Counted from the first letter of the stretch, positions 262-12,523 are shown. The stretch: 32,000 nt of DNA from Raphidiopsis brookii D9 (GCA_000175855.1 ACYB01000016.1:51532-83531); one strand, 5' to 3'. The notes: generated by a model not told the origin, from the letters alone. Program-made: numbers and translations.

Positions 262-609
262 ATGCCAATGGCAGTTGGCGTTATCGAAACTTTAGGTTTT
301 CCCGCAGTTTTGGCCGCAGCAGATGCTATGGTTAAGTCTGCTGCTGTCACAATCGTATACTATGGCATTGCAGAAAGTGGAAGGTTATTGGTTGCTGTTA
401 GAGGACAGGTAGCAGAGGTGAAAACCGCTGTTGCAGCTGGAATAGCTTCCGAAGAAACTGTTTATGGTGGTCAGGTAATTACTCATTACATAGTTCCCAA
501 TCCACCGGAAAATGTGGAAACAATTCTACCTATCCATTTCACTTCTGAGTCTGAACCTTTTCGCTATTTTTTAACTTGTACCGGTAATTTTATTTATACA
601 GGAGATTAG
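262..609 (+). CDS. ccmK3: Carboxysome shell protein CcmK3 (BMC-H domain)
   Basis: The N-terminus [26 protein letters not shown] and the motif [10 protein letters not shown] match my recollection of CcmK3. An AGGAG ribosome-binding site lies upstream. The gene sits directly upstream of a CcmK4-like gene. Confidence 0.85.
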
Positions 610-611
610 TA

Positions 612-962
612 ATGTCCCTACAGGCCGTTGGATCTTTAGAAACAAAGGGTTTTCCCGCAGTTTTAGCCGCAGCAGATGCTATGGTTAAAGCTGGAAGGGT
701 AACTTTGGTCGGTTATATCCGAGTTGGTAGCGCCCGCTTTACAATCAATATTCGTGGTGATGTTTCTGAGGTGAAAACCGCCATGGCCGCTGGTGTGGAA
801 GCAGCACAAAATGTCTATGGTGGTACTCTAGAATCCTGGGTAATTATCCCCCGTCCCCATGAAAACGTAGAAGCTGTCTTACCTATTGCTTACACGGATC
901 AAGTCCAGCAATATCGAGATTCGGTGGAAAACCCCATCGTCCGCTCCTCCAGTGGTAGATAG
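612..962 (+). CDS. ccmK4: Carboxysome shell protein CcmK4 (BMC-H domain)
   Basis: [55 protein letters not shown] and [11 protein letters not shown] are typical of CcmK4. Its ATG starts 2 nt after the ccmK3 stop. Confidence 0.85.
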
Positions 963-1058: not shown

Positions 1059-2195
1059 ATGGAACTAAGTGCAGCAAATATAGCAGAATATTGGCAGAAA
1101 CTACTCGCTGCTGAGTCTCCTGAAAACAGTGATGACGCTAGAAATAGTATTATGCTTTGGCTTTTGGGGTCGGACTTAACTAGATTTGCAGGGTTAACAC
1201 CCAAAGAATTGGAGATTGCTCAAAAGGCTATGGAATATCGCTGGCGAGTTCTACGACAGCGATATCTAGGTGTGGGAAGAGAACAGGCCTATCGTAATTT
1301 GATGGTTCGTTTGGCCAGTGTCACAACGATTAGAAATAAAATTCAAACCTGGATTTCTTTGAGTCGCGATCGCCAGCGTGGTGTGATAGATGTACTGCAA
1401 GAGATAATTCAGGAAATGCTGCAAAGTGATTCTTATATGCAGCAGCAAATGAGTCTAATTGCTGATGCAACTAGGGATAGAAGGTTGCGAGACATGTTAC
1501 TATTTGCCAGCTTGGAAGAATACTGTTTGCGACCTGTGCGTAATCAGCCTTTATTGACACATCGGTTTGTCAATTATTTACGCCGAATTCAGCGAGGGGG
1601 GTTGACTCAAATTCCTGGTAAGGACGTAATTAGACTGGTTTCTGACGAAATATTAACAGAAGATACGGAAAGCAGCTTAAATCTTTTAGATGACGAAGCG
1701 ATCGCCCAATATCAGGAAGCGCAAAAGGTAGAAGAGCAACAATTGTTACGTCAGGAAGTGCGAGAGAAATTCGAGGAATACCTATTGGAGAAGCTAGGAC
1801 AAACAGCGGTGGAGTGGTTGAGCTTATATTTAGAGGGTAAGAGTCAAGAGGAAATTGCTAAAAAGCTGAATCAGCCAATTAGGGAGTTATACAGATTAAG
1901 GGAGAAAATTAGTTACCATGCTGTTAAGGTTTTTGCCATCAAGGATAAACCGGAGTTGGTAGAGAATTGGTTATCAACCTCTTTGAAGGAAGATGGGTTA
2001 GGTCTAACGCCAAAACAATGGGAGCAGTTAGGGGAGAAGATAAGTCCCCTAGGTAAGGAGATTCTTGATAGAAGGAAAGCGGGGGATTCTTTAGCAGGAA
2101 TAGGGGAGAAATTACAGTTGAAGACCCATAAGGTGATAGGTGAGTGGACAAAGGTTTATTTAGTCGCTCAGAATTTAAGGGGCCAAAATAATTAA
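1059..2195 (+). CDS. Putative DNA-binding regulator with C-terminal sigma-70 region-4-like HTH segments, possibly HetZ-related
   Basis: This is a 378-aa ORF with good coding character. HTH-like segments are SQEEIAKKLNQPIRELYRLREKISYHAV and SLAGIGEKLQLKTHKVIGEW. The HetZ-related label comes from memory only. The N-terminal boundary is uncertain (see the TnpB-relic finding). Confidence 0.5.
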   Translation: MELSAANIAEYWQKLLAAESPENSDDARNSIMLWLLGSDLTRFAGLTPKELEIAQKAMEYRWRVLRQRYLGVGREQAYRNLMVRLASVTTIRNKIQTWISLSRDRQRGVIDVLQEIIQEMLQSDSYMQQQMSLIADATRDRRLRDMLLFASLEEYCLRPVRNQPLLTHRFVNYLRRIQRGGLTQIPGKDVIRLVSDEILTEDTESSLNLLDDEAIAQYQEAQKVEEQQLLRQEVREKFEEYLLEKLGQTAVEWLSLYLEGKSQEEIAKKLNQPIRELYRLREKISYHAVKVFAIKDKPELVENWLSTSLKEDGLGLTPKQWEQLGEKISPLGKEILDRRKAGDSLAGIGEKLQLKTHKVIGEWTKVYLVAQNLRGQNN

Positions 2196-2220
2196 AATTA
2201 ATTAAAAGAATTTTGGTTTC

Positions 2221-2244
2221 AGACAGGGAATTCATTCCCTGTCT
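2221..2244 (+). terminator. Perfect inverted repeat AGACAGGGAAT-TC-ATTCCCTGTCT, 26 nt downstream of the 1059-2195 stop
   Basis: The 11-bp arms are visible in the sequence. There is no U-tail, so function as an intrinsic terminator is uncertain. Confidence 0.3.
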
Positions 2245-2364
2245 CAGATCGAAATGCGATCGCTTTCTGGAACTACTGTAGAGTCAACTACTGTAGTGTA
2301 AGTTAACATTGCCAATAAAATTTCTAGTCTGTGCCATAATTTGATTACCTCTGAGTAAAGGGGT

Positions 2365-2413
2365 GTAAGGTGATCTGGAATTCTTGGCCGAACCGCCCGA
2401 TCACCTTACTTTT
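2365..2413 (+). terminator. Hairpin GTAAGGTGATC-N23-GATCACCTTAC followed by TTTT
   Basis: The 11-bp arms (2365-2375 and 2399-2409) are perfect and a T4 tail follows. No ORF lies upstream. It could end a short non-coding transcript. Confidence 0.3.
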
Positions 2414-2636
2414 AAGTATAAAACTAATTGAACAGATATGCAAGGGGTTTATAGAAAATAATTAATAAAATTTGTAAATCTTTTCGACTTGTCAAGCATA
2501 AATGAAAATATAGGAATTTCTGACTCACCCTAGCTTTAAAACCCAATCTAGGTTACATTTATATATTTACTGTATTCGTATAGGCGTGTTTTCATACAAC
2601 TCCAGGAATTTTTAGGAAATCCCCCGGTCTAGAAGT

Positions 2637-2775
2637 AGCAATTAAGTTGGCTGAAAAGACTAATGATGTGGTTATTGGTTTATGTATATTGTATGAGTTA
2701 CCAATTAGGGTTCTAGGAACCTAATTGCTTGAATCAGGGTGTGACCGTTCAATTGAGATTAAGGATAGTTGATCT
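2637..2775 (+). promoter_or_regulatory. Conserved upstream leader element, copy 1, the most diverged
   Basis: Shares the box GCAATTAAGTTGG...TAATGATGTGGTTATTGGTTTATGTATATTGTAT with the other four leaders. It then forms its own hairpin, CAATTAGGGTTC-TAG-GAACCTAATTG (2702-2727). Confidence 0.4.
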
Positions 2776-2943
2776 ATGAATTTAATCGACAATAACGTGC
2801 TATTCACCCAGGTTTTTGATAGAGAATCAGTTAGTATTAATGGTGGTAGTCTGTTGGAAATAGTTAATGTGCCTAATGACGTGCTAAATTTCTTTCAGAA
2901 TTTACCATCAGAGTTAGAAAATTGGATTCTCGGATATCTTTAA
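2776..2943 (+). CDS. Double-glycine-leader peptide 1 (55 aa), distinct acidic core
   Basis: Not in the ORF track because it is under 60 aa. My translation is MNLIDNNVLFTQVFDRESVSINGG|SLLEIVNVPNDVLNFFQNLPSELENWILGYL. The 24-aa leader aligns with the four downstream peptides. An AAGGA ribosome-binding site lies upstream. Confidence 0.7.
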   Translation: MNLIDNNVLFTQVFDRESVSINGGSLLEIVNVPNDVLNFFQNLPSELENWILGYL

Positions 2944-3074
2944 GTAAAAGTCATTGAATTTGGGTTTCAGGTATTGGTGTTTGCGAGAACGCCTACCTGA
3001 CACTCAATTTTACTTATAAACCCTTTCCTAAGATAGAAATTAGATTGCCAACCTGAAGTTTTTAAAAATAAGGT

Positions 3075-3106
3075 CCCCAATTTCTTTATGGAAGTTGGGG
3101 ATTTAT
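3075..3106 (+). terminator. Intrinsic-terminator-like hairpin CCCCAATTTC-TTTATG-GAAGTTGGGG with tail ATTTAT
   Basis: The 10-bp stem has one G-U pair and a T-rich tail. The same element recurs after peptides 3 and 4. Confidence 0.55.
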
Positions 3107-3116
3107 TGTGAGCAGA

Positions 3117-3292
3117 GATGTATTTTTGAGAAGTTGTTTTTCCTCAAGGTGGTAATTAGGTTGGTTGGAAATATCAATGATCTGGCTATTGGTTTCTGGA
3201 TATTGTATTAACAAGCAAGCGGTTGAGGAACTTGCAAAGAAGGAATCAACCTCTAGCTGAAAACAAATCTAAAGATTATAACTTATACTATC
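3117..3292 (+). promoter_or_regulatory. Conserved upstream leader element, copy 2
   Basis: Homologous to 4028-4211. Contains ATCAATGATCTGGCTATTGGTTTCTGGATATTGTATTAACAAGCAAGC and the hairpin GGTTGA...TCAACC (3221-3226 and 3246-3251). Confidence 0.4.
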
Positions 3293-3493
3293 ATGCAAGT
3301 AACAGGAAATAATGCTCTATTTACGGAAGTTTATGGTGAAGAGTCTGCTATTGTGAGTGGTGGTCAACGCTCTTATAACTTTATTGGGTTAGCTACGTTT
3401 TTTATGCTGGCTCTGATATTGTGGGGACTTGATGAGGGGTTACTATATCCTAATTTTAATAACTATACCCGGTTTGGAGGTATGTCTACTTAG
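3293..3493 (+). CDS. Double-glycine-leader peptide 2 (66 aa)
   Basis: MQVTGNNALFTEVYGEESAIVSGG|QRSYNFIGLATFFMLALILWGLDEGLLYPNFNNYTRFGGMST. It shares the leader and the SYNFIGL...LW.LDE.LL core module with peptides 3-5. Confidence 0.75.
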   Translation: MQVTGNNALFTEVYGEESAIVSGGQRSYNFIGLATFFMLALILWGLDEGLLYPNFNNYTRFGGMST

Positions 3494-3586
3494 GACTCAG
3501 AGTCTATTTTTTTAAAAAGAATTTGTTTTTTTGTCTAAAAAAGTTCTCAGATTCTCCAAAAAGTCTGGGAATTTTTTATGCTTAAA

Positions 3587-3768
3587 GGTGTGTATTTTTA
3601 AGAAATATTTTCTCATAAATATGGCAATTAAAACTACTAAAAGTATCAATGATCTTATTATTGATTCCATCTATTGTATTAGTAAGCAAGCAGTTGAGGG
3701 ACTTACAAATAGGCAATCAACTTCTAGCTGAAAATAAACCTAATCAAAAGATCAAGGAGTACTGTATC
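3587..3768 (+). promoter_or_regulatory. Conserved upstream leader element, copy 3
   Basis: Homologous to the other leaders (GTATTTTTAAGAAAT...ATCAATGATCTTATTATTGATTCCATCTATTGTATTAGTAAGCAAGC). Hairpin AGTTGA...TCAACT at 3692-3697 and 3717-3722. Confidence 0.4.
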
Positions 3769-3927
3769 ATGCAAGTAATCGAAAACAATGCATTATTCGC
3801 TCAAGTTTCTGTCGAAGATGCCGCTGTTTCTTCAGGAGGCTCTTATAACTTCATTGGACTACTTACCTACACTACATTAGGTACACTAATCTGGGCACTT
3901 GACGAAGCTTTACTTCCTGGTGTGTAA
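3769..3927 (+). CDS. Double-glycine-leader peptide 3 (52 aa)
   Basis: MQVIENNALFAQVSVEDAAVSSGG|SYNFIGLLTYTTLGTLIWALDEALLPGV. AAGGAG lies 9 nt upstream of this ATG. The longer track ORF from 3649 runs through the conserved non-coding leader. Confidence 0.8.
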   Translation: MQVIENNALFAQVSVEDAAVSSGGSYNFIGLLTYTTLGTLIWALDEALLPGV

Positions 3928-3987
3928 AAATTGATTTTACCTTTTGACCCAGAATTTTTCTATCAATAGTTTATGATTCCTATATAT

Positions 3988-4018
3988 CCCCAACTTCTCT
4001 GTGGAGTTGGGGATTTGT
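3988..4018 (+). terminator. Intrinsic-terminator-like hairpin CCCCAACTTC-TCTGT-GGAGTTGGGG with tail ATTTGT
   Basis: A GC-rich 10-bp stem 60 nt after the peptide 3 stop, followed by a T-rich tail. Confidence 0.6.
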
Positions 4019-4027
4019 AGTAGTTAT

Positions 4028-4211
4028 AGATATGTATTTTTGAGAAGTTGTTTTTCCTCAAGGTGGTAATTAAGTTGGTTAAAAATATCAATGATCTGGC
4101 TATTAGTTTGTGGATATCGTATTAACAAGCAAGCAGTTGACGAACTTACAAAGAAGCAATCAACTTCCAGCTTAAAACAAATCTAATCACAAGATCAAGG
4201 AGTACTGTATC
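4028..4211 (+). promoter_or_regulatory. Conserved upstream leader element, copy 4
   Basis: Nearly identical to copy 5. Contains the ATCAATGATCTGGCTATTAGTTTGTGGATATCGTATTAACAAGCAAGC box and the AGTTGA...TCAACT hairpin (4135-4140 and 4160-4165). Confidence 0.4.
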
Positions 4212-4370
4212 ATGCAAGTAATCGAAAACAATGCATTATTCGCTCAAGTTTCTGTCGAAGATGCCGCTGTTTCTTCAGGAGGCTCTTATAACTTCATTGG
4301 ACTACTTACCTACACTACATTAGGTACACTAATCTGGGCACTTGACGAAGCTTTACTTCCCGGTGTGTAA
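4212..4370 (+). CDS. Double-glycine-leader peptide 4 (52 aa), protein identical to peptide 3
   Basis: Not in the ORF track because it is under 60 aa. It differs from 3769-3927 by one synonymous change (CCT to CCC). Confidence 0.8.
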   Translation: MQVIENNALFAQVSVEDAAVSSGGSYNFIGLLTYTTLGTLIWALDEALLPGV

Positions 4371-4430
4371 AAATTGATTTTACCTTTTGACCCAGAATTT
4401 TTCTATCAATAGTTTATGATTCCTATATAT

Positions 4431-4461
4431 CCCCAACTTCTCTGTGGAGTTGGGGATTTGT
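4431..4461 (+). terminator. Intrinsic-terminator-like hairpin, identical copy of 3988-4018
   Basis: Same sequence, displaced by 443 bp. Confidence 0.6.
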
Positions 4462-4470
4462 AGTAGTTAT

Positions 4471-4654
4471 AGATATGTATTTTTGAGAAGTTGTTTTTCC
4501 TCAAGGTGGTAATTAAGTTGGTTAAAAATATCAATGATCTGGCTATTAGTTTGTGGATATCGTATTAACAAGCAAGCAGTTGACGAACTTACAAAGAAGC
4601 AATCAACTTCCAGCTTAAAACAAATTTAATCACAAGATCAAGGAGTATTGTATC
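4471..4654 (+). promoter_or_regulatory. Conserved upstream leader element, copy 5
   Basis: Tandem duplicate of 4028-4211, with two substitutions by eye. Confidence 0.4.
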
Positions 4655-4879
4655 ATGGAAGTAATCGAAAAAAACGTATTGTTCTCCCAAATTTCTGTTG
4701 AAGAGTCTGCCATCTTTAGTGGTGGCTCTAATCCTACTCCTCCTACTCCTCCTACTCCTCCTACTCCTCCTACTCCTTCTGGTAATCCAGGTTCTTATAA
4801 CTTCATTGGACTACTTACCTACATTGGGGTAGGTACGCTAATCTGGGCACTTGACGAAGCTTTACTTCCTGGTGCGTAA
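4655..4879 (+). CDS. Double-glycine-leader peptide 5 (74 aa) with Pro/Thr-rich insert
   Basis: MEVIEKNVLFSQISVEESAIFSGG|SNPTPPTPPTPPTPPTPSGNPG-SYNFIGLLTYIGVGTLIWALDEALLPGA. An AAGGAG ribosome-binding site lies upstream. Confidence 0.8.
   Translation: MEVIEKNVLFSQISVEESAIFSGGSNPTPPTPPTPPTPPTPSGNPGSYNFIGLLTYIGVGTLIWALDEALLPGA
4733..4777 (+). repeat. Perfect 9-nt tandem repeat (CCTACTCCT) x5, encoding (PTP)5
   Basis: Read directly from the sequence. It is in frame within peptide 5. Confidence 0.9.
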
Positions 4880-4966
4880 AATAAGGCCCTTGTCTATATC
4901 TCACTCTCCTTAATGCAAAACTCCCACAATTTCTAGGTATTAATAGGAGATATGACAACCCACAAA

Positions 4967-5005
4967 AGAGTGAAATGAACCATTCTTGGATTTCACTCTT
5001 TTGTT
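4967..5005 (+). terminator. Intrinsic terminator AGAGTGAAAT-N13-ATTTCACTCT followed by TTTGTT
   Basis: A perfect 10-bp stem, extendable through flanking A and T runs, with a T-rich tail. It lies between the last peptide gene and the ABC exporter. Confidence 0.6.
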
Positions 5006-5184
5006 ATATACTCGGAAATTGGATAATTTTCTCAACCTTCTTACTGCGATAGTACATTAATGCTCTAGGTTTTTAAAAACCCTATTATGAAAATTACTCA
5101 CTAAAATCTATACCCCCTTGTTATATCTTACTAATCCAAAACAATAGGATTAGATCCCATAAACATGATAAACATTCAAAGATT

Positions 5185-7335
5185 ATGAAATACGCCCATA
5201 TTTCCCAACACAGCATCGAAGACTGTGGCGCTGCTTGCTTGGCTGCGATCGCCAAATATTATGGCAAAAATTTCACCTTGACTCGCACCAGAGAAGCTGT
5301 AGGTACAGGTCAATTCGGTACCACTTTATTAGGTCTACAAAGAGGAGCTAAAACCTTAGGTTTTAAAGCTTCAACAGTTAGAACTTCACCAGAAATTCTC
5401 AAAAGATTAAACGAAGCACCCCTACCGGCAATCATTCACTGGCACGGAAATCATTGGGTGGTTTTTTATGGTAAAAAGGGGGAAAAGTATATAATCTCTG
5501 ACCCAGGAGTAGGGGTACGCTACCTCTGTGAAGAAGACTTTATAGAGGGTTGGAATGATTGGTTAATGCTATTGCTAGAACCTAGTCCAGAAGAGTTTTT
5601 AAAAACAGAAGAAGATAAAATAGGTGGCTTTTGGCGTTTCTTTAAACAGGTGTGGACTTTTCGGGGAATTCTTGCCCAAGCTCTACCTCTCAATTTATTA
5701 TTGGGACTGTTATCTTTGGCTTCTCCCTTTTTATTACAAATTCTGACTGATGATGTGCTAGTACGAGGTGATACCAAATTACTCACCACCATGGTCATTG
5801 CCGTGGTCGTGATGAACCTCATTTCTAGCAGTTTATCTTGGGTCCAATCTAATTTAATCGCCCATTTTGCCCAACGTCTCCAATTGGGACTGGTGATGGA
5901 ATTTGGCAGACAAATTTTGCATCTACCTCTATCCTATTATGAAGCTCGTCGCAGTGGAGAAATTACTAGTCGTCTCCAAGATATTAAGCAAATCAATCAG
6001 TTGGTTACTCAAGTAGTTGTCAGTTTACCTAGCAAATTTTTTATTGCTCTGATTTCTCTTGGTCTGATGGCTTTTTATAGCTGGAAGTTAACTTTGGTGG
6101 CTATGATAATTGCTGGGATTATGACTATTACTCCTTTAGTGTTTCAACCTAAATTACAGCAAAAAACCCGTGAACTACTGGTTAAAGATGCGGAAACCCA
6201 AGGTGTATTGGTAGAAACTTTCAAGGGTGCTCTAACTCTCAAAACTACTACCGCTGGCAATCAATTCCTAGAAGAGTTCCAAGTTCGATTTGGCAAGTTG
6301 GCTAATTTAACTTTGAACAGTATGCAAATTGGTATTATCAATAATACCTTTTCTGGCTTTATCTCTTCCATTGGTAGTATTATCCTCCTTTGGTTTGGTG
6401 GTCATTTAGTTATTAATCCTAGTGAAAATCTCAGTATTGGTCAACTCCTGGCTTTTAATTCAATGAATGCTAATTTCCTGGGTCTCATAACGACCGTTAT
6501 CAGTTTTGTCCAGGAATTTACCCGCGCTAAAACAGCAGTTCAAAGACTCACAGAAGTGATAGATACCACTTCAGAAAATGACTATGATGGCAAAAAGCCT
6601 TTTGCTGAAATTCCCAGTGATGCTACAATCACTTGCACTAATATTAATTTCCATTATGCTGGTAGACTTGACCTATTAGAAGATTTTTCCTTAACTATTC
6701 CCGGTGGTCAAGTTGTGGCTTTGATTGGTAAATCAGGATGTGGTAAAAGTACCCTGGCTAAATTAATTGCTGGGCTATATACCCTCCAATCTGGTAATAT
6801 TCGCATCGGACTCTATAACCAACAAGATTTGTCTTTAGAATCTTTACGTCAACAGGTGATTCTAGTTCCTCAAGAACCCCATTTCTGGAGTCGTTCTATT
6901 GTGGAAAACTTCCGTTTGGGCGCACCTCATGTTAGTTTTGAGCAAATTGTCCGAGCTTGTGAAATTGCTGGTGCTGATGAATTTATCAGTAAATTACCCG
7001 CAAAATATCAAACTATATTGGGTGAATTTGGTGCCAATATTTCCGGTGGTCAAAGACAACGATTAGCTATAGCTAGAGCTATTGTTACAGATCCACCAAT
7101 TCTAATTTTGGATGAGTCTACGGGGGGACTAGACCCGGTTAGTGAAGCACAGGTTTTAGATCAGTTATTTAAACACCGTCAAGGAAAAACTACTATTTTA
7201 ATTACCCATCGTCCCCAGGTAATCAATCGCGCTGATTGGATTATTGTATTGGATGGAGGAAAACTCCAATCTCAAGGATCTTTGGAAGAATTGAAATTCA
7301 GACGGGGGGAACACCAAGAATTCATTATGGTCTAA
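5185..7335 (+). CDS. Peptidase-C39-domain ABC transporter (double-glycine peptide cleavage and export, HetC/SunT/LagD-like)
   Basis: The N-terminal C39 domain has a candidate catalytic Cys (SIEDCGAACLA), His (GNHWVVF) and Asp (ISDP). A six-helix-type membrane domain follows. Walker A is GKSGCGKST, the ABC signature is ISGGQRQRLAIARA and Walker B is ILILDEST. Confidence 0.9.
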   Translation: MKYAHISQHSIEDCGAACLAAIAKYYGKNFTLTRTREAVGTGQFGTTLLGLQRGAKTLGFKASTVRTSPEILKRLNEAPLPAIIHWHGNHWVVFYGKKGEKYIISDPGVGVRYLCEEDFIEGWNDWLMLLLEPSPEEFLKTEEDKIGGFWRFFKQVWTFRGILAQALPLNLLLGLLSLASPFLLQILTDDVLVRGDTKLLTTMVIAVVVMNLISSSLSWVQSNLIAHFAQRLQLGLVMEFGRQILHLPLSYYEARRSGEITSRLQDIKQINQLVTQVVVSLPSKFFIALISLGLMAFYSWKLTLVAMIIAGIMTITPLVFQPKLQQKTRELLVKDAETQGVLVETFKGALTLKTTTAGNQFLEEFQVRFGKLANLTLNSMQIGIINNTFSGFISSIGSIILLWFGGHLVINPSENLSIGQLLAFNSMNANFLGLITTVISFVQEFTRAKTAVQRLTEVIDTTSENDYDGKKPFAEIPSDATITCTNINFHYAGRLDLLEDFSLTIPGGQVVALIGKSGCGKSTLAKLIAGLYTLQSGNIRIGLYNQQDLSLESLRQQVILVPQEPHFWSRSIVENFRLGAPHVSFEQIVRACEIAGADEFISKLPAKYQTILGEFGANISGGQRQRLAIARAIVTDPPILILDESTGGLDPVSEAQVLDQLFKHRQGKTTILITHRPQVINRADWIIVLDGGKLQSQGSLEELKFRRGEHQEFIMV

Positions 7336-7381
7336 CTGAACCGTTCCCAACTTCTACCCAACTACTCTTCATCTACCCAAT

Positions 7382-8780
7382 ATGCTCTATACTCATCGAC
7401 GTAAATTTATATCTTCTGTAGATAATCCCCAGTTCCTCCCTCCTGTTAGTCGTTGGACTTCTTTAGCAGGAATATTCCTAGTTGGTACTGTTGCTACTGC
7501 TATTGCTCTTGCTTCTTGGGTTAAATATAATGTCACAGTGAAAGCGGATGCTGTGGTTCGTCCTATGGGAGAAATTCGTGTAGTTCAACCGGAAATAGAG
7601 GGAACTATTAAAAGTATTTTGGTCAAACCAAATCAAACAGTGAAAATAGGTGATGTAATTGCCTATTTAAATACGGATGATTTGCTCATACAAAAAAAGT
7701 CAGTTACAAGAAAATATCCAACAGGGTAATTTACAAATATTGCAAATTCATGCCCAAGTCCGTATTTTAGATCGGCAAATTTTGGCTGAAACTCAAGTTG
7801 CTCAAAATGCTATTAATTCCGCAAGGGTGGATTTGTTACGTAACCAAAGGGAATATCAACAACAGCAGGTTAGCACCCAAGGTGAATTTCTGTCCGCTCA
7901 AGCTAACTGGCAAAAGGCTAAAGCTTCTTTGGATAAAGCTCGAGCAGATCTGAATTTTGCCAAAATGGATAAGGAACGCTATCAGGAACTATCCCAAATT
8001 GGAGCTGTGGGTAGACGGGAATTGGAACAAAAAGCTTTGACTGTTCAGCAAACACAATCAATCCTGGATACTGAGAGGAAATCTCTGGAAATGGCTAAAA
8101 TTAAGGTTCAATCAGCTCAAGTTGCTATTAATCCAACTCCAGCAGCAGTGATGATAGCACAGGAACGTATCGCTCAAGAAACTGCTAGGGGTGTGTCTAA
8201 TATTGCTAGTCTCAATAAGGAAAAACAAGCTTTAATTGAGCGTCGAGTTCAACTAGAAACCCAAATTAAACAATCTATTAAGGAATTAGAGCAGGTAGAA
8301 AATCAGATGCGTAAAAGTATGATTTTAGCTACGAGTAATGGTATTATTCTCAAACTCAATTTACGCAATCCCGGACAGGTGATCCGTCCCAGCGAATCTG
8401 TAGCAGAAATTGTACCTGATAGTTCGGAACTGTTGATTAGAGCTTTAATTCCCACTGAGGAAATACAAAAGGTCAATATAGGTCAACAAGTTAAATTACG
8501 GGTTGGTGCTTGTCCCTATCCTGATTATGGAACACTCCATGGGGTGGTTCAAACTATTTCTCCTGATGTGATTACCAATCAACCTAATAATCCAGGAACG
8601 ACTACTAATAGGATGGGTTATTTTGAAGCTATGGTTAAACCAGCAAGTTTGCAATTTGGTCAAGGTCGACATCAATGTTATCTCCAATCGGGAATGGAGG
8701 TGAAAGCTGATATTATTTCTAAACAGGAAACAGCTCTAGAATTTATGTTCAGAAAAGCAAGGTTAATTACTGATTTGTAA
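7382..8780 (+). pseudogene. HlyD-family membrane fusion protein, split into two frames at an A7 run (7692-7698)
   Basis: 7382-7729 encodes the TM anchor and lipoyl-like hairpin (VVRPMGEIRVVQPEIEGTIKSILVKPNQTVKIGDVIAYL). 7677-8780 encodes the coiled coil and beta-barrel. Removing one A gives the continuous reading ...DDLLIQKSQLQENIQQ... Confidence 0.75.
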
Positions 8781-8830
8781 TTTTTATCAGGTGGGGAATA
8801 GGCAATAGACTAAAAAAATCGGTGTAGATC

Positions 8831-9583
8831 ATGGGTCTCAAAAAGTTCAAACTAGCATTAAATTGGTTGTTTTATAAACAATCTATAAAGCTATATGGGG
8901 AATCAGAAAAAATTCGAGATGATTTGTTACAGGAGTCTTTTACTATCCGTCGCGGTTTGGAAGCATTGAAAATTCAACACTGTAATTTATTAAATAACCA
9001 AGTAATGGGTTATCCATCGCCAGGTTTTTATCCTGTAAGTTCTCAACTAATCAGTGCTTATTTACCACATAATGAATCACCAAATCAATCATTTAATACT
9101 TCAATTTCTGAACATATTAAAAGGGTGGAAAACTTTCATCACTCCCTAGTTGATTTAAGCGATCGCCTGTTTCCAATTTATATTGAAGAGAGTCTACCTT
9201 TATCCATTCAGTGTTTGCTAGATTCTTGTTTTCTTGCTCATCCTCACATATCAGTTGATTTTGACATGCCCAGTTATTGGAGGAAGGAGTCAGCACAATT
9301 TAGTCTGCTGACTTTAAGAACTCTTCAGGAATTAATGTCTATAACTGTACCAACTTTTTCCGATCCTCTATCAATTTATATAAATTTGAAAGACCGGAAA
9401 AATATTCGGGAACTAACTCTGGAAATTATTTACCCCGATATTTCTACTTTGTTATTTTATTCTGGTTTACCGGAATTAAAATATCTCAGTAGTAGCTGGG
9501 AATTTTTAATTTCTGGTAAATGTTTTTATCATATAGTCAATTACAAAAGTAACTACAAAATAGCCTGGTTTTTTTGCTGGTGA
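8831..9583 (+). CDS. Degenerate histidine-kinase-like protein lacking recognisable H, N and G boxes
   Basis: EKIRDDLLQESFTIRRGLE resembles a HisKA_3 H-box but lacks the His. LVDLSDRLFPIYIEESLPLSIQCLL and LRTLQELMSITV resemble the dimerisation and N-box regions but lack the Asn. No DxGxG motif and no TM segment is present. Confidence 0.4.
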   Translation: MGLKKFKLALNWLFYKQSIKLYGESEKIRDDLLQESFTIRRGLEALKIQHCNLLNNQVMGYPSPGFYPVSSQLISAYLPHNESPNQSFNTSISEHIKRVENFHHSLVDLSDRLFPIYIEESLPLSIQCLLDSCFLAHPHISVDFDMPSYWRKESAQFSLLTLRTLQELMSITVPTFSDPLSIYINLKDRKNIRELTLEIIYPDISTLLFYSGLPELKYLSSSWEFLISGKCFYHIVNYKSNYKIAWFFCW

Positions 9584-9763
9584 ATTGAGGTAAATCCCGA
9601 TAAATCGCCAGGATAGAAATTCAGATCTTAGCTTTCTGACTAGCAGAATAGGTTCTAAATCTTTCTCTAAAGTTCAGGAATTTTCTCCATGAGGGGTGAA
9701 GTACCTCATCCTCAACTAAATAGAATCCATACAATTTATTAGGTAAAGGTTCATCATTTTTTA

Positions 9764-10492
9764 ATGTTGATAATGCAACATCAAATACAACATTTATTAC
9801 CTGATCAATTAACCGTTCAATCCACTAATCAAACTAATAAACTGCTGAAGATATTAGTCATTGATGACCATGAATCGGTTCTGAACGGGACGATTTACAT
9901 TTTGCGTAAAAACTATCCCAGTGCTGAATTTATAACTGCAACAGATGTGCAAACAACTGTGGACCAGGTAACTAATAGACAACCTGATCTCATAGTTATG
10001 GATCTTTCCATACCTGAAAGACAAGGAATGACTGCTCGCACTGATAATGGTATTCAACTACTAAAGACCTTGATGAAACAACATCCCCATCTGAATATTG
10101 TTGTTCAAAGCGCCCACAGCAAAACCCTAGTGCGAATTCGGTTAAATATTGACAGTCATCAAGGAGGTTTTACCATTGCTAATAAAAGTGTTTCTATTCA
10201 GGAGATGTTAACCAGGGTTGATTGGGCATTACAAGGACTAACTCACACTAAGGATATTAAGGGAATTAACTCGGGAATGGAGGTAAAACCAGAGTGGTTA
10301 AAAGTTTTATATTTGGCCTTTGAGCGGGGATTACAAGATAAAGCTATTGCTCAAGAAATGTGTGTTTCTGAACGAATGGTACGTCATTATTGGAATAAGT
10401 TACAAGATGCTCTCAATATCTATCCAGAGGTCGGTAAAAATATTCGTATTCAAACGGAAAAACAAGCTAGGGAGGAGGGATTGATTGATTAG
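9764..10492 (+). CDS. Response regulator, NarL/FixJ (LuxR-type HTH) family
   Basis: The receiver domain has VIDDHE, DLIVMDLSIPE (phospho-acceptor Asp), SAHS and ANKS. The C-terminal HTH is QDKAIAQEMCVSERMVRHYWNKLQDAL. Confidence 0.85.
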   Translation: MLIMQHQIQHLLPDQLTVQSTNQTNKLLKILVIDDHESVLNGTIYILRKNYPSAEFITATDVQTTVDQVTNRQPDLIVMDLSIPERQGMTARTDNGIQLLKTLMKQHPHLNIVVQSAHSKTLVRIRLNIDSHQGGFTIANKSVSIQEMLTRVDWALQGLTHTKDIKGINSGMEVKPEWLKVLYLAFERGLQDKAIAQEMCVSERMVRHYWNKLQDALNIYPEVGKNIRIQTEKQAREEGLID

Positions 10493-10547
10493 TTAATAAT
10501 AGGAAGTGGGGCGGGAGAAAACCGAAGAATAATCAAGGGCTAAAATT

Positions 10548-11528
10548 ATGCAGTCTAAACCTTGGAAAAAGATTAGGGTGGTTTTACCAATCAACCATTT
10601 ATTAAACCATATATCAATCTGTATATTAAACTATCTATCAAACCATCTATCTAACATTTACCAAAAACGGATTCTTGGTTATTTGGGAATTTTTAATTTA
10701 CTCAGTATTACCTATCTAATAGTAAATTGGGATTATTTAAACTCTCCTATTTTGGCAGTTTATATTATTATTGCTAATCTGTTGGAATTGATAATACTAC
10801 AGCACAAAGGTCAAAACCTAAAATTAGAAGTTAAATCCAGACAAACAATCATTGAAATTATCTTTGAAACCATCCATAATGGTCCCCTACAAACCCTAGA
10901 TAAAATTTTAAGAATAGTCAATCAAGTCAATCAGCAAGAATTCTCTTCAGATACACTAATCAAAACCACAATTCCAGAATTAACCACAGAACTGGAAAAA
11001 TTAAACCAAGAACTCAGAGGAATCTATGAATTTTGGCACCGAGAAACCATCTCTCCACACGCTAACCTCTACCTAGATAAAAATCTAGTCATTAATTTAG
11101 AAGCTCCCCTACCAGAAATCCTCTATCAGGTCTATACCCATACCCTGGAACGAAATTTCTCCTGTTTTCAAACCATTAGATTAAAAGTCCGCAGTTTTGA
11201 CCCACTGGATGAAACTGGGTTAACCCTGGAACATAAACGCGGAATTTGTCGTTTCTTGGAAGAATCACTATGTAATGTGGGTAAATATGCAACAGAAGTA
11301 ACCTGTCTTAAAGTTAGTGGCCTCTCATATATGGGTTGGTACACGCTCAGTATTATCGATAATGGTTTAGGTGTGAACTCATGTAAAGAAGGAGAAGGAA
11401 CAAAGCAGTTCAAATATTTAGCTCAACAAATTCAAGGTAAATTTCAGAGAATTCCTCAACATCCCCAAGGAACTATTTGTGAATTATCTTGGCCTATAAG
11501 TTCTGTGGTCAAGAATCATCAAACTTAG
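10548..11528 (+). CDS. Sensor histidine kinase (HisKA_3 plus HATPase_c) with two TM helices and a minimal external loop
   Basis: TM segments are ILGYLGIFNLLSITYLIV and ILAVYIIIANLLELIIL. The H-box is ETIHNGPLQTL, the N-box-like motif is LEESLCNVGKYA, G1 is IIDNGLGV, and the G2-like motif is GEGTKQFKYLAQQIQG. Confidence 0.75.
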   Translation: MQSKPWKKIRVVLPINHLLNHISICILNYLSNHLSNIYQKRILGYLGIFNLLSITYLIVNWDYLNSPILAVYIIIANLLELIILQHKGQNLKLEVKSRQTIIEIIFETIHNGPLQTLDKILRIVNQVNQQEFSSDTLIKTTIPELTTELEKLNQELRGIYEFWHRETISPHANLYLDKNLVINLEAPLPEILYQVYTHTLERNFSCFQTIRLKVRSFDPLDETGLTLEHKRGICRFLEESLCNVGKYATEVTCLKVSGLSYMGWYTLSIIDNGLGVNSCKEGEGTKQFKYLAQQIQGKFQRIPQHPQGTICELSWPISSVVKNHQT

Positions 11529-11590: not shown

Positions 11591-12523
11591 GTGCAGATCA
11601 CATTTTTAGGCACAAGTTCTGGTGTACCTACAAGATCACGTAATGTTTCCAGTGTGGCGCTAAGACTACCACAACGCGCAGAACTCTGGTTGTTTGACTG
11701 TGGTGAAGGTACACAACATCAAATTTTGCGCAGTGACCTGAAAATTAGTCAACTGTCACGCATTTTTATCACCCATCTCCATGGTGATCACATTTTTGGC
11801 TTGATGGGACTTTTAGCTAGTTGTGGTTTAGCTGGTAATGTGGAACGGGTTGATATCTATGGACCTGCTGGATTAAATGAGTACCTGCAAGGTGCTTCAC
11901 GTTACTCCCACACTCATTTTTCCTATCCTATTAAGGTTCATACTGTTCAACCTGGTGTGATTTACGAAGATGAGGAATTTACTGTTACCTGTGGAATGCT
12001 CCATCACCGCATTACTGCTTTTGGTTATCGTGTAACGGAAAAAAACAGATCTGGACGATTTGATGTAGAACAAGCCAAAGCCCTACAAATACCTTCCGGA
12101 CCAATTTATGGAAAACTTAAACGGGGGGAAATTGTCAAATTGGAAGATGGTCGAATCATTAATGGTAAGGAATTATGTGGTCCAACAGAAATTGGACGTA
12201 AATTTGTCTATTGTACAGATACTGTTTATTGTGATGGGGCTGTTAAATTGGCCAAGGATGCGGATGTGTTGATTCACGAAGCTACTTTTGCTCATCAAGA
12301 TGCAGAAATGGCTTTTCAAAGATTACACTCTACCAGTACAATGGCAGCACAAACAGCTTATGTGGCTGGAGTAAATCAACTGATTATGACCCATTTTAGT
12401 CCCAGATATACTCCGGGGAATGACATTGAGTTAAAAGATTTACTTAAAGAAGCTCGTGCAATTTTTCCTAATACCATTATGGCTCATGATTTTATGGTTT
12501 ATGACATACCCAGAAGAAGATAA
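11591..12523 (+). CDS. rnz: Ribonuclease Z (tRNA 3' endonuclease)
   Basis: GTG start. [25 protein letters not shown] and the metallo-beta-lactamase motif HLHGDH are present. Confidence 0.9.

What the first reader, a model, noticed from the sequence alone, without database searches (positions are those of the whole stretch)
2637..11528. Accessory island: five tandem GG-leader peptide genes, a C39-ABC exporter, a HlyD adaptor and an atypical three-gene sensing module
An approximately 9-kb same-strand block lies between core genes (ccmK3/K4 and the HTH gene on one side, rnz on the other).

- **Peptide genes:** five small genes at 2776, 3293, 3769, 4212 and 4655 share a 24-aa leader ending in GG.
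- **Export genes:** an ABC transporter follows whose N-terminal C39 papain-like domain retains candidate Cys, His and Asp residues. This is the enzyme class that cleaves after GG during export. A HlyD-family adaptor comes next.
- **Sensing genes:** a kinase-like protein without catalytic boxes, a NarL/LuxR-type response regulator and a small two-TM HisKA_3 kinase.

The layout recalls peptide-pheromone-regulated class II bacteriocin loci of Firmicutes, which also combine precursors, a GG-exporter with its accessory protein, a histidine kinase and a response regulator. Here it is built from different regulator families, in a cyanobacterium, with non-cationic products. No modification enzyme (LanM/LanB, cyclodehydratase, PatA/G protease, radical SAM) and no obvious immunity gene is present. 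Double-glycine peptide clusters in cyanobacteria are known from genome mining, but their products and functions remain largely untested.
Basis: partly seen in the sequence, partly recalled or inferred. Interest (0 to 1): 0.8.

Follow-up and report, generated by a model that had tools for sequence, protein, structure and literature searches.

The report
Conserved Nostocales double-glycine peptide export locus
This is a real gene cluster that makes, trims and exports small double-glycine-leader peptides next to a three-protein signalling unit, but it is a conserved feature of heterocyst-forming cyanobacteria whose peptides were catalogued in this very genome in 2011, not a strain-specific accessory island.

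Summary
The described genes are present. There are five double-glycine (GG) leader peptide cassettes, then a C39-ABC exporter with an intact Gln/Cys/His/Asp site. A HlyD adaptor follows, split here by one extra A at 7690. Then come a kinase-fold protein without catalytic motifs (X), a receiver/LuxR-like regulator, and a two-TM histidine kinase (Y).

The "accessory island" reading fails. ABC–HlyD–X–regulator–kinase lies in the same order in all 80 other Nostocales loci fetched, with GG peptide genes upstream in all 74 that hold the exporter start, and rnz downstream in about half.

The window is Raphidiopsis brookii D9 contig ACYB01000016. All five peptides are already listed as "group III bacteriocin precursors" by Wang et al. 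2011.

Three points found in none of the papers searched:
- X–regulator–CHASE2-kinase is a portable trio. In other cyanobacteria it sits beside two-partner-secretion genes.
- A conserved ~130-nt upstream element precedes peptide genes in 67 of 83 loci and occurs five times here.
- The Raphidiopsis version is reduced. It has no CHASE2 sensor and no conserved ~105-aa GG protein.

Peptide function is untested. The cores are anionic, Cys-free and lack an immunity gene, so they look more like EbfG-type exoproteins than classical bacteriocins.

The parts
2598..2729 (+). Conserved upstream element, copy 1 (promoter/operator-like plus start of the 5' leader), ahead of peptide gene 1
   Evidence: nhmmer E 4e-30. 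Aligned with the other four copies and with elements from 22 other Nostocales loci.
2776..2943 (+). GG-leader peptide 1 (55 aa). Leader MNLIDNNVLFTQVFDRESVSINGG. The 31-aa core has charge -4 and belongs to its own core family.
   Evidence: It is CRD_00994 in Wang 2011 Table S3.
2957..3101 (+). Hairpins after peptide gene 1: 2957-3010, and 3074-3101 (TCCCCAATTTC/GAAGTTGGGGA followed by a T-rich run)
   Evidence: I4, I6. The terminator role is inferred; the scanning tool did not call them.
3113..3243 (+). Conserved upstream element, copy 2
   Evidence: nhmmer E 7e-38
3293..3493 (+). GG-leader peptide 2 (66 aa). Its core belongs to the SYNFIGL family and carries a longer C-terminal tail.
   Evidence: It is CRD_00995.
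3508..3542 (+). AT-rich inverted repeat after peptide gene 2
   Evidence: I5
3584..3715 (+). Conserved upstream element, copy 3
   Evidence: nhmmer E 2e-29
3769..3927 (+). GG-leader peptide 3 (52 aa). Core SYNFIGLLTYTTLGTLIWALDEALLPGV: charge -2, GRAVY 0.92, no Cys.
   Evidence: It is CDS22 in Wang 2011.
3972..4028 (+). Hairpin (CCCCAACT...AGTTGGGG, then a T-rich run) after peptide gene 3
   Evidence: I1
4026..4158 (+). Conserved upstream element, copy 4
   Evidence: nhmmer E 4e-39
4212..4370 (+). GG-leader peptide 4 (52 aa), identical in protein sequence to peptide 3
   Evidence: It is CDS23.
4415..4471 (+). Hairpin after peptide gene 4
   Evidence: I2
4469..4601 (+). Conserved upstream element, copy 5
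   Evidence: nhmmer E 4e-39
4655..4879 (+). GG-leader peptide 5 (74 aa). The SYNFIGL core is preceded by a (PTP)n linker.
   Evidence: It is CRD_00996.
4723..4789 (+). 9-bp tandem repeat encoding the PTP repeats inside peptide 5. Its length varies between strains.
   Evidence: D7. Strain variants are P0002-P0005.
4962..5004 (+). Perfect 15-bp inverted repeat between peptide gene 5 and the exporter gene, probably a terminator or attenuator
   Evidence: (I3). The function is inferred.
5185..7335 (+). Peptidase-containing ABC transporter (PCAT, 716 aa): C39 domain, six-TM domain and ATPase
   Evidence: It is 100% identical to the C. raciborskii CENA303 protein.
7382..8780 (+). HlyD-family periplasmic adaptor, interrupted by a +1 insertion (A at 7690). 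The two ORFs are 7382-7729 and 7677-8780.
   Evidence: There is an N-terminal TM segment at residues 25-49.
8831..9583 (+). X: cytoplasmic pseudo-histidine-kinase (DHp-like helical hairpin plus CA-like alpha/beta domain, 250 aa). It has no His at the helix-1 motif and no N or G boxes.
9764..10492 (+). Response regulator: receiver domain (Asp80 aligns with the DLIVLD Asp of B. subtilis PhoP) plus a divergent LuxR/GerE-type HTH
10548..11528 (+). Y: two-TM sensor histidine kinase (326 aa) with intact H, N, G1 and G2 motifs. It lacks the CHASE2 domain found in most orthologues.

Best explanation
**What it is.** The block is the Raphidiopsis brookii D9 copy of a locus conserved throughout heterocyst-forming cyanobacteria (Nostocales). 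It dedicates a type-I-like export route to a set of small unmodified peptides.

**Proposed mechanism.**
1. Each of the five peptide genes is a self-contained cassette. It has a conserved ~130-nt upstream element with -35/-10-like boxes, a ~100-nt leader, the ORF and a hairpin. Peptides can therefore be made in large excess over the machinery.
2. The C39 domain of the ABC transporter (Gln8/Cys14/His90/Asp106) cuts the 24-aa leader after GG.
3. The ABC core, with the HlyD adaptor and an unlinked TolC-type channel, moves the 28-50-aa anionic, hydrophobic, Cys-free cores out of the cell.
4. The adjacent trio is one signalling unit: pseudo-kinase X, a NarL/LuxR-type regulator and kinase Y. It most likely sets transcription from the conserved upstream elements. 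X would act as a non-catalytic partner that modulates Y or the regulator.

**Likely role of the peptides.** They are more likely exoproteins or signals with a housekeeping role in filament or population biology, like EbfG/PteB of Synechococcus elongatus, than a strain-specific antibiotic.

**Status of each step.**
- Shown: gene content, catalytic residues, protein folds, order-wide synteny, and the conserved upstream element.
- Inferred: leader cleavage and export, the regulatory link between the trio and the peptide promoters, and the biological role.

**State in D9.** In the assembly as given, the adaptor gene is frameshifted, so the system may be impaired unless this is a sequencing error.
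For: **Export machinery.**
- The transporter has a full PCAT architecture and aligned catalytic residues.
- The adaptor matches HlyD/MFP models.
- The leaders fit the double-glycine pattern. Across 242 peptides from the locus set, positions -16 L, -15 F, -9 E, -4 V and -2 G are conserved.

**Conservation.**
- ABC-HlyD-X-RR-Y lies in the same order in all 80 other Nostocales loci.
- One to ten GG peptide genes lie upstream in each of the 74 of those loci that hold the exporter start.

**Upstream element.**
- It occurs five times in the window, only ahead of the peptide genes.
- It was found in 67 of 83 loci, always on the same strand. Of the 64 loci other than L001-L003, 62 have it 46-97 nt before a GG-peptide ATG.
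- A hairpin follows every peptide gene.

**The signalling trio is a unit.**
- In the five distinct distant contexts examined (eight loci, L084-L091), X is followed directly by the regulator. The gene after that is a CHASE2 kinase wherever Pfam data exist, and a Y homologue by tblastn in L086, L089 and L090. All three proteins are recognisably homologous to the window's.

**Peptide properties.**
- Cores across the locus set are 79% neutral or anionic, and only 4% contain Cys.

**Literature.**
- Wang's group III also contains the S. elongatus ebfG cluster, where GG motifs and the PteB Cys are needed for secretion and biofilm formation (PMC4997328).
- CTB-family genes in Nodularia are transcribed and carry different values in the last column of that paper's table, which I read as transcription-unit numbers (PMC9846622).
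Against: - There are no expression, cleavage or secretion data for this organism.
- The adaptor gene is frameshifted in the window.
- The generic sigma-70 scan did not call a promoter in the conserved element. Its role as promoter or operator rests on position and conservation alone.
- No binding-site evidence links the regulator to the element. The element is absent from the distant X-RR-kinase loci.
- The window's peptides do not match the curated CTB family and show no similarity to EbfG, so the analogy of function is weak.
- The kinase here lacks an extracellular sensor domain, so what it senses is unclear.
Confidence: 0.6

Rival explanations
1. This is a quorum-sensing-regulated class-II-like bacteriocin locus. 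One exported peptide would be an autoinducer sensed by kinase Y. The regulator would then switch on the remaining peptides, which kill competing cyanobacteria.
For: - The layout is peptides, GG exporter, accessory protein, kinase and regulator.
- The peptide genes are tandem and diversifying. The cores fall into 39 families, and the window's two families are restricted to Raphidiopsis/Cylindrospermopsis.
- NCBI names the commonest family 'CTB family bacteriocin'.
- Most orthologous kinases carry an extracytoplasmic CHASE2 sensor.
- Each peptide gene has its own conserved upstream element.
Against: - No immunity-type gene lies in the block.
- The cores are anionic or neutral rather than cationic.
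- The machinery is an order-wide conserved feature rather than a variable weapon.
- CHASE2 is well conserved (69% mean identity) while the cores diverge, so there is no receptor-ligand co-diversification.
- In this window the kinase has no sensor domain.
- The kinase and regulator families differ from the AgrC/ComD and LytTR types of the Firmicute systems.
- No antimicrobial activity has been shown for any member in the papers found.
Confidence: 0.2
2. The two-component trio is merely a conserved neighbour. It controls something else, and the peptide and exporter genes are regulated independently, for example by FUR-type or nutrient regulators.
For: - In other cyanobacteria the same trio sits beside unrelated genes (TPS/ShlB, DUF928, CHAT-TPR) without any PCAT.
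- The conserved upstream element is absent from those loci.
- In Anabaena PCC 7120 the asr5139 promoter bound FurA, FurB and FurC in EMSA (PMC12267927).
- Nodularia CTB genes respond to phosphate starvation.
Against: - Same-strand adjacency holds in all 80 other Nostocales loci, which span several Nostocales lineages (Nostoc, Fischerella, Scytonema, Calothrix and relatives). This is hard to explain without a functional link.
- In the distant loci the trio again neighbours genes for secreted proteins.
Confidence: 0.2
3. In R. brookii D9 the locus is a decaying remnant. The adaptor is a pseudogene, the sensor domain and the conserved long GG protein are lost, and the peptides are no longer exported.
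For: - There is a one-base insertion in hlyD.
- The kinase lacks CHASE2.
- The ~105-aa conserved GG protein is absent.
- From my own knowledge, D9 has a strongly reduced genome.
Against: - All other genes are intact.
- The exporter is 100% identical to CENA303, where the adaptor is intact.
- The short kinase form is shared by 24 loci, including Anabaena, Dolichospermum and Sphaerospermopsis. It is therefore an old, maintained variant.
- The frameshift lies next to an A7 run in a draft assembly that, from my own recall, was made by pyrosequencing. It may be an error.
Confidence: 0.15

Closest known systems
Group III cyanobacterial 'bacteriocin' gene clusters of Wang, Fewer & Sivonen 2011 (PMC3140520)
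   Same: - The content matches: a short-type C39-ABC transporter plus HlyD, with several GG-leader precursor genes upstream and no LanM, CAP_ED or second ABC.
- This exact locus is in their Table S3 as CRD_00994, CRD_00995, CDS22, CDS23 and CRD_00996 of R. brookii D9.
   Different: - That catalogue does not mention the kinase, regulator and pseudo-kinase genes. Its text has zero occurrences of 'two-component', 'histidine kinase' or 'response regulator'.
- It does not mention the conserved upstream element or the order-wide synteny.
- It also lists the two CcmK shell proteins as precursors, which looks like a mis-call.
EbfG1-4 / PteB / HlyD (Synpcc7942_1132-1134) of Synechococcus elongatus PCC 7942
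   Same: - Tandem small GG-motif protein genes are followed directly by a C39-ABC exporter and a HlyD protein.
- It falls in the same Wang group III.
- The GG motifs and the peptidase Cys are required for secretion (PMC4997328).
- The products are non-antibiotic exoproteins, reported to form amyloid in the biofilm matrix (cited in PMC12267927).
   Different: - The mature peptides share no detectable similarity.
- No kinase or regulator is mentioned in that paper.
- Identity between the window's exporter and PteB was not measured here. The only figure available is 54% for Anabaena Alr5147 against PteB, from PMC12267927.
- The biofilm role is untested in any Nostocales member.
CTB family bacteriocin (NCBIfam NF038167, 'cyan_ocin_like')
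   Same: - Peptides in the same genomic slot in Nostoc, Scytonema, Nostocales cyanobacterium HT-58-2 and cyanobacterium PCC 7702 match it above cut-off (E 4.5e-24 to 6.9e-16).
- Their leaders are homologous to the window's.
   Different: - The three window peptides scanned against NCBIfam (1, 2 and 5) give no hit at E<=1, and all five give none in Pfam.
- Their cores (the SYNFIGL family and the peptide-1 family) are confined to Raphidiopsis/Cylindrospermopsis.
Three-component-regulated class II bacteriocin and competence loci of Firmicutes (e.g. pln, spp, ComCDE, BlpRH)
   Same: - The loci contain GG-leader peptides, a PCAT exporter with an accessory protein, and a linked kinase and regulator.
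- Structural genes are followed by hairpins.
   Different: - The kinase is HisKA_3-like with two TM segments or a CHASE2 sensor, not a polytopic AgrC/ComD type.
- The regulator is NarL/LuxR-like, not LytTR.
- An extra pseudo-kinase is present.
- There is no immunity gene.
- The cores are anionic.
- The host is Gram-negative, so an adaptor and an outer-membrane channel are needed.
PCAT1 of Clostridium thermocellum and ComA of Streptococcus (solved PCAT structures 4ry2, 8hf4)
   Same: - The alignment is full-length (E 2.7e-112 and 1e-96).
- The catalytic Gln/Cys/His/Asp positions align.
   Different: The cyanobacterial protein works with a HlyD adaptor in a diderm envelope.

Membership tests
Peptidase-containing ABC transporter (PCAT/AMS) | N-terminal C39 papain-like domain with catalytic Cys and His (plus Gln oxyanion and Asp) | tested here: met
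   Pfam Peptidase_C39 E 4.4e-32. Q8, C14, H90 and D106 align with the PCAT1 residues in 4ry2/7n87.
Peptidase-containing ABC transporter (PCAT/AMS) | Type-I exporter transmembrane domain plus nucleotide-binding domain with Walker A, signature and Walker B motifs | tested here: met
   ABC_membrane 6e-37 and ABC_tran 8e-32. GKSGCGKST, ISGGQRQR and ILILDES are read from the translation. The alignment to PCAT1 and ComA is end to end.
Peptidase-containing ABC transporter (PCAT/AMS) | Cleaves the leader after GG during export | not testable with these tools
   Needs biochemistry or mass spectrometry.
Double-glycine leader peptides | 15-30-aa N-terminal leader ending in GG/GA/GS, with conserved hydrophobic and acidic positions | tested here: met
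   All five ORFs have 24-aa leaders ending in GG. Position-specific conservation holds across 242 peptides from the locus set. A weak Bacteriocin_IIc leader hit (E 0.035) was seen for a Nostoc orthologue only.
Wang et al. 2011 group III cluster | Short-type C39-ABC plus HlyD, precursors nearby, no LanM, CAP_ED, S8 or second ABC | tested here: met
   Domain content. The locus is listed as group III in Table S3 with matching coordinates.
CTB family bacteriocin (NF038167) | Score above the 32-bit cut-off of the curated model | tested here: not met
   Window peptides 1, 2 and 5 give no hit at E<=1. Four of the six variable same-slot peptides tested from other genera score 51.8-84.4 bits.
HlyD-family membrane fusion protein | N-terminal TM anchor, lipoyl-like, coiled-coil and beta-barrel domains in one polypeptide | tested here: inconclusive
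   The domains are present: Biotin_lipoyl_2, HlyD_3, HlyD_D23 and type_I_hlyD at 6.5e-30, with a TM segment at 25-49. The ORF is broken by an extra A at 7690.
Sensor histidine kinase, HisKA_3 / NarX-DesK-VraS class (protein Y) | Phospho-acceptor His in an H-[DN]-x-x-x-Q box, plus N, G1 and G2 boxes of the ATP-binding domain | tested here: met
   H110-N-G-P-L-Q115, N243, D271xGxG and G284-T285 are invariant in 22 homologues. The profile matches the VraS CA domain at 2.1e-05, and also DosT and DevS.
Sensor histidine kinase, HisKA_3 / NarX-DesK-VraS class (protein Y) | Match to Pfam HisKA_3 / HATPase_c above threshold | tested here: not met
   The window protein has no Pfam hit at E 0.01. Orthologues reach only sub-threshold HATPase_c scores of 18-22 bits against a cut-off of 26.4.
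Histidine kinase (protein X) | DHp helical hairpin plus Bergerat-fold CA domain | tested here: met
   AF2 model with pLDDT 76.4. All 50 top Foldseek hits are histidine kinases or close relatives (HK853, HprS, DesK and others, E about 1e-6 to 6e-5, probability 1.00), but TM-scores are only 0.3-0.4.
Histidine kinase (protein X) | Conserved phospho-acceptor His and ATP-binding N/G1/G2 boxes | tested here: not met
   The helix-1 motif EAEKIRDDLLQESFTIRR has no His. No Asn or DxGxG is among the invariant columns. The only near-invariant His (H103) is in helix 2. There is no sequence hit to any kinase.
NarL/FixJ (LuxR-type) response regulator | Receiver domain with a phospho-acceptor Asp | tested here: met
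   Response_reg 3.8e-13. Asp80 in DLIVMD aligns with the DLIVLD Asp of PhoP.
NarL/FixJ (LuxR-type) response regulator | C-terminal GerE/LuxR helix-turn-helix | tested here: inconclusive
   Pfam GerE gives no hit at 0.01. NCBIfam EvgA and FixJ alignments span residues 29-217. The DevR HTH aligns only weakly (domain E 61). A distant orthologue has a precomputed weak GerE hit.
Firmicute three-component class II bacteriocin / pheromone locus | AgrC/ComD-type polytopic kinase, LytTR regulator, cationic bacteriocin and a dedicated immunity gene | tested here: not met
   The kinase and regulator families differ. The cores have charge -4 to 0. No candidate immunity ORF is conserved.
EbfG/PteB biofilm system | Mature-peptide homology to EbfG1-4, and a requirement for biofilm formation | not tested
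The papers report that EbfG has no homologues in other cyanobacteria. The phenotype needs genetics.

The most novel reading that the evidence does not exclude
The pseudo-kinase X, the NarL-type regulator and the CHASE2 kinase form a previously undescribed, cyanobacteria-wide three-component signalling module. Its job would be to control loci for secreted proteins: PCAT-exported GG peptides in Nostocales, and two-partner-secretion exoproteins with DUF928/CHAT genes elsewhere. In Nostocales it would close a feedback loop by sensing exported peptide, or its effect on the envelope, and driving the conserved upstream element. X would act as an obligatory non-catalytic partner. One possibility is a phosphatase-like or scaffold role through its invariant R-D-x-x-x-Q motif, which resembles the H-D-x-x-x-Q box of HisKA_3 kinases with the His replaced.
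Probability: 0.25. Interest if true: 0.7.

Novelty: new variant of a known kind. Interest (0 to 1): 0.45.

Why it matters
GG-leader peptide clusters are among the commonest unexplained gene sets in cyanobacteria. Only one of them, EbfG/PteB, has a demonstrated role.

**What this work adds.**
- One such cluster is a fixed, syntenic feature of the whole heterocystous order.
- It is tied to a specific three-protein signalling unit and a conserved cis element.
- This turns a vague 'putative bacteriocin' annotation into testable hypotheses in genetically tractable relatives such as Anabaena and Nostoc. Open questions include what the regulator binds, what CHASE2 senses, and what the pseudo-kinase does.

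**Possible relevance to blooms.** For bloom-forming Raphidiopsis/Cylindrospermopsis the secreted peptides could bear on filament surface properties, aggregation or competition.

**Limits on novelty.** The finding is not a new kind of system. Its core, the peptides plus exporter, was already catalogued in this genome.

Tried and rejected
- **X against Y (profile-profile):** no relationship (probability 0.1). They are not recent paralogues.
- **X profile against PDB sequences:** only chance hits. The kinase relationship shows only at fold level.
- **Rfam scan of 2200-5300:** nothing near any gathering score. The NsiR1 and miRNA hits are chance.
- **Structured RNA in the 5' leader:** only a 5-bp stem (AGTTG/CAACT) at -1.9 kcal/mol, with two weakly covarying pairs. 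I do not claim an RNA element.
- **Generic sigma-70 and terminator scan:**
  - It did not call the conserved element or the cassette hairpins.
  - The promoter and terminator roles therefore remain inferences.
- **Hydrophobic cores versus loss of CHASE2:**
  - Median GRAVY is -0.175 in short-kinase loci and -0.02 in long-kinase loci.
  - No such trend exists, and the comparison is not phylogenetically independent.
- **Co-occurrence of the conserved ~105-aa GG protein with CHASE2:** rejected. The protein is present in many short-kinase loci.
- **'Horizontally acquired island':**
  - Rejected on synteny.
  - The GC dip is small and fits an intergenic-rich region.
- **Orthology with Anabaena PCC 7120 asr5139-alr5148:**
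  - It has the same gene order and the same Wang group, but orthology could not be verified.
  - The Trichormus variabilis orthologue (L092/L093) has a single called peptide gene and lies near petCA.
  - I therefore call asr5139-alr5148 only a likely counterpart.
- **Minus-strand small ORFs between the cassettes (e.g. 3512-3670):** they overlap the conserved element and are not conserved as ORFs, so I treat them as spurious.

Full report
**1. What is in the window**

ORF listing and domain searches give a same-strand block. Its upstream neighbours are two CcmK shell proteins (262-962) and a gene at 1059-2195 that matches HetZ-related protein 2 (NF037965, 587 bits). Its downstream neighbour is rnz (11591-12523).

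The block holds five small ORFs at 2776, 3293, 3769, 4212 and 4655.
- All five begin with a 24-residue leader ending in GG.
- ORFs 3 and 4 encode identical peptides.
- ORFs 2 to 5 share the core SYNFIGL...W.LDE.LL. ORF 1 has a different core.
- The cores are 28-50 aa long, carry net charge -4 to 0, and have no Cys, Lys or Arg clusters.
- The genes sit in a 443-bp tandem cassette.

Only five relatives were found among 5.8 billion clustered proteins. The two that carry a name are from Cylindrospermopsis raciborskii CENA303, and the context fetched for one unnamed hit is the same locus. In those assemblies the ORFs are kept at 93-100% identity.

**2. Export genes**

- ORF 5185-7335 is a peptidase-containing ABC transporter with C39, ABC_membrane and ABC_tran domains.
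- It aligns over its full length with the solved PCAT1 and ComA transporters.
- In the N-terminal alignment, Gln8, Cys14, His90 and Asp106 fall on the corresponding Gln, Cys, His and Asp of PCAT1. I take these to be its catalytic residues from my own knowledge.
- The HlyD-family adaptor follows but is split into two ORFs.
- Alignment with three relatives shows one extra A at 7690, just before an A7 run. The sequence is otherwise almost identical.
- Relatives encode an intact protein: 465 aa in L001 and L002, called as 453 aa in L003.
- This is either a real frameshift or an error in a draft assembly.

**3. The three 'sensing' genes**

*Protein X (8831-9583).*
- It matches nothing in Pfam, NCBIfam or PDB sequences.
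- An AlphaFold2 model built on 26 homologues (pLDDT 76) shows two long helices followed by an alpha/beta domain.
- All 50 best Foldseek matches in the PDB are histidine kinases or close relatives (HK853, HprS, DesK and others) at 10-17% identity. TM-scores are modest, at 0.3-0.4.
- Its most conserved stretch, EAEKIRDDLLQESFTIRR in helix 1, has no His. No Asn or DxGxG motif is conserved in the C-terminal domain.
- X is therefore best described as a pseudo-kinase.

*The regulator (9764-10492).*
- It has a clear receiver domain.
- Its C-terminal segment aligns only weakly with LuxR-type HTH domains.
- A distant orthologue carries a weak GerE hit.

*Protein Y (10548-11528).*
- It has two hydrophobic segments separated by about three residues.
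- The conserved motifs are H110 (TIHNGPLQ), N243, DxGxG and G284-T285.
- Its profile matches the ATP-binding domains of VraS, DosT and DevS.
- It falls below Pfam thresholds.

**4. Not an accessory island**

- A scan of one genome per species with an X-family profile returned 80 loci, all Nostocales.
- tblastn with the window's proteins shows ABC, HlyD, X, regulator and Y in the same order and strand in every locus long enough to tell. Identity to the window is 73-85% for ABC, 65-81% for the regulator, 38-53% for X and 43-62% for Y.
- rnz lies downstream within the fetched sequence in 40 of the 80 loci. In the Anabaena, Dolichospermum and Sphaerospermopsis loci it follows the kinase directly.
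- The ccmK3/4 and HetZ-related-2 neighbours are found only in Cylindrospermopsis/Raphidiopsis.
- Upstream of the exporter, each of the 74 of these loci that hold the exporter start has one to ten ORFs with a homologous GG leader.
- The cores fall into 39 similarity families:
  - one large family has 119 members in 38 loci;
  - the window's two families are confined to its own lineage.
- Across the set, 79% of cores are neutral or anionic, and 4% contain Cys.

**5. Already in the literature**

- Table S3 of Wang et al. 2011 (PMC3140520) lists CRD_00994, CRD_00995, CDS22, CDS23 and CRD_00996 for R. brookii D9 contig ACYB01000016.
- Their coordinates equal the window coordinates plus 51531, and the lengths are the same: 55, 66, 52, 52 and 74 aa.
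- The window is therefore that contig, and the peptides are catalogued as group III precursors.
- The same group holds the S. elongatus genes later named ebfG1-3.
  - In that system the GG motifs and the Cys of the PteB exporter are needed for secretion and biofilm formation (PMC4997328).
- A 2025 paper proposes the Anabaena cluster asr5139-alr5148 as an EbfG/PteB counterpart. It reports Fur proteins binding the asr5139 promoter (PMC12267927).
- NCBIfam NF038167, 'CTB family bacteriocin', recognises the large peptide family at this locus in other genera but not the window's peptides.
- In Nodularia, CTB genes are transcribed and rise under phosphate starvation (PMC9846622). In that paper's table each gene carries a different number in the last column, which I read as separate transcription units.
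- None of these papers mentions the kinase, regulator or pseudo-kinase genes.

**6. What appears new**

(a) *A conserved upstream element.*
- A ~130-nt sequence precedes each of the five peptide genes and occurs nowhere else in the 32-kb window.
- An HMM of it hits 67 of 83 loci, always on the coding strand. Of the 64 loci other than L001-L003, 62 have it 46-97 nt before a GG-peptide start codon.
- The cross-genus alignment shows:
  - a -35-like ATGACT;
  - a 17-18-nt spacer;
  - a -10-like TATCGT/TATTGT;
  - two conserved upstream boxes;
  - a conserved leader ending in a Shine-Dalgarno sequence.
- Every peptide gene is followed by an inverted repeat, including a perfect 15-bp one before the exporter gene.
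- I read this as five self-contained, co-regulated cassettes. This reading is inferred: the generic scan did not call these sites, and RNA-structure support is weak.

(b) *The trio is a portable module.*
- An exhaustive profile search found 240 X-family cluster representatives. All 150 listed are stand-alone proteins no longer than 326 aa, mostly 200-270 aa.
- In the five distinct distant contexts examined (eight loci, L084-L091), X is followed directly by a homologous regulator (45-63% identity). The next gene is a CHASE2 kinase (34-41% identity) wherever Pfam data exist, and a Y homologue by tblastn in three further loci.
- These trios are not next to a PCAT.
  - Three of the five contexts hold two-partner-secretion genes (TPS domain, with ShlB/POTRA in one).
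  - Three hold DUF928, and three hold CHAT-TPR proteins.
  - One holds a Chlam_PMP-repeat protein.

(c) *The Raphidiopsis version is reduced.*
- In 53 of 77 loci Y is about 627 aa long, with an N-terminal CHASE2 domain in the four long forms scanned (E 1e-58 to 1e-62).
- In 24 loci, including the window and the Anabaena, Dolichospermum and Sphaerospermopsis group, it is about 300 aa without CHASE2.
- A conserved ~105-aa GG protein lies directly before the exporter in at least 40 loci. It is missing here.

**7. Mechanism and alternatives**

The processing and export step is strongly supported by homology. The link between the trio and the peptide promoters rests on invariant synteny, and on the trio's habit of neighbouring secreted-protein genes.

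A peptide-pheromone loop is possible but has two problems:
- the CHASE2 domain is conserved (69% mean identity) while the cores diverge;
- this window's kinase has no sensor domain.

A classical bacteriocin role is disfavoured by the lack of an immunity gene, the anionic cores and the order-wide conservation. It cannot be excluded.

The D9 copy may be impaired if the frameshift is real.

**8. Verdict**

- The 'accessory island' interpretation is wrong.
- The peptide and exporter part is already known from genome mining.
- The conserved signalling trio and the cis element are worthwhile new leads.
- Overall this is a new variant of a known kind, of moderate interest.

Noticed in passing
window 7690: There is a single extra A (CATACAAAAAAAG against CATCAAAAAAAG in three relatives). 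It splits the HlyD adaptor gene into two ORFs. It lies next to an A7 run, so it may be an assembly error or a true pseudogene.
   Followed up: yes
window 4723-4789; P0002-P0005: The segment between the GG site and the conserved core of peptide 5 is a 9-bp tandem repeat encoding (PTP)n. It has five units here and three in a metagenome relative. In CENA303-like strains it is replaced by NKKDD(TD)n. This is a slippage-prone, hypervariable N-terminus of the mature peptide.
   Followed up: partly
L004-L083, directly upstream of the exporter gene (e.g. L007 5708-6019, L022 4690-5016): A conserved ~100-110-aa GG-leader protein lies just before the exporter in at least 40 loci. It has a Ser/Thr-rich middle, an Arg-rich patch and a hydrophobic C-terminal tail. 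It is absent from the window and from L001-L003, and it has no Pfam family.
   Followed up: partly
L007 4303-4752 and 19 other loci: A conserved ~146-aa Cys-rich protein (MA.KQEVKKYLA.WFQLGKK...CGRC.MP.P) lies upstream of the peptide array in 20 Nostocales loci. It has no Pfam hit and is absent from the window.
   Followed up: no
window 8831-9583 (X), residues ~51-82: The Raphidiopsis/Cylindrospermopsis X protein carries a ~28-residue insertion between the two DHp-like helices (pLDDT <50), which other genera lack. Some orthologues (e.g. Chlorogloeopsis) have an N-terminal TM helix that the window's X lacks.
   Followed up: partly
window 8831-9583 (X), residues 29-34: The invariant R29-D30-x-x-x-Q34 resembles the H-D-x-x-x-Q phosphatase/phospho-acceptor box of HisKA_3 kinases, with His replaced by Arg. 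Y has H110-N-x-x-x-Q115. The resemblance comes from my recall of the NarX/DesK literature and is a lead, not a tested result.
   Followed up: no
L001 5194-6684 (minus strand) and 6958-7182: C. raciborskii CENA303 has an extra 496-aa ORF without any Pfam hit, plus a 74-aa ORF. They are inserted between the HetZ-related-2 gene and peptide gene 1. The window lacks them.
   Followed up: partly
window 1059-2195: The 'HTH gene' upstream is a full-length HetZ-related protein 2 (NF037965, 587 bits). In the loci fetched, it neighbours the locus only in Cylindrospermopsis/Raphidiopsis.
   Followed up: partly
window 262-962: Wang et al. 2011 Table S3 lists the two CcmK microcompartment proteins (CRD_00991 and CRD_00992) as group III 'precursors'. 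This looks like a false positive of their screen.
   Followed up: yes
L084-L091: Distant X-regulator-CHASE2-kinase trios sit beside TPS-domain exoproteins, a ShlB/POTRA transporter, DUF928, CHAT-TPR proteins and calpain-like (Peptidase_C2) genes. This is a recurring neighbourhood whose function is unknown.
   Followed up: partly
window 12686-13732: A Ser/Thr protein kinase with an N-terminal Cys-rich (zinc-ribbon-like) segment follows rnz. It is syntenic in the Cylindrospermopsis/Raphidiopsis loci. Apart from one weak minus-strand match in L038, it is not seen in the other genera's loci.
   Followed up: no
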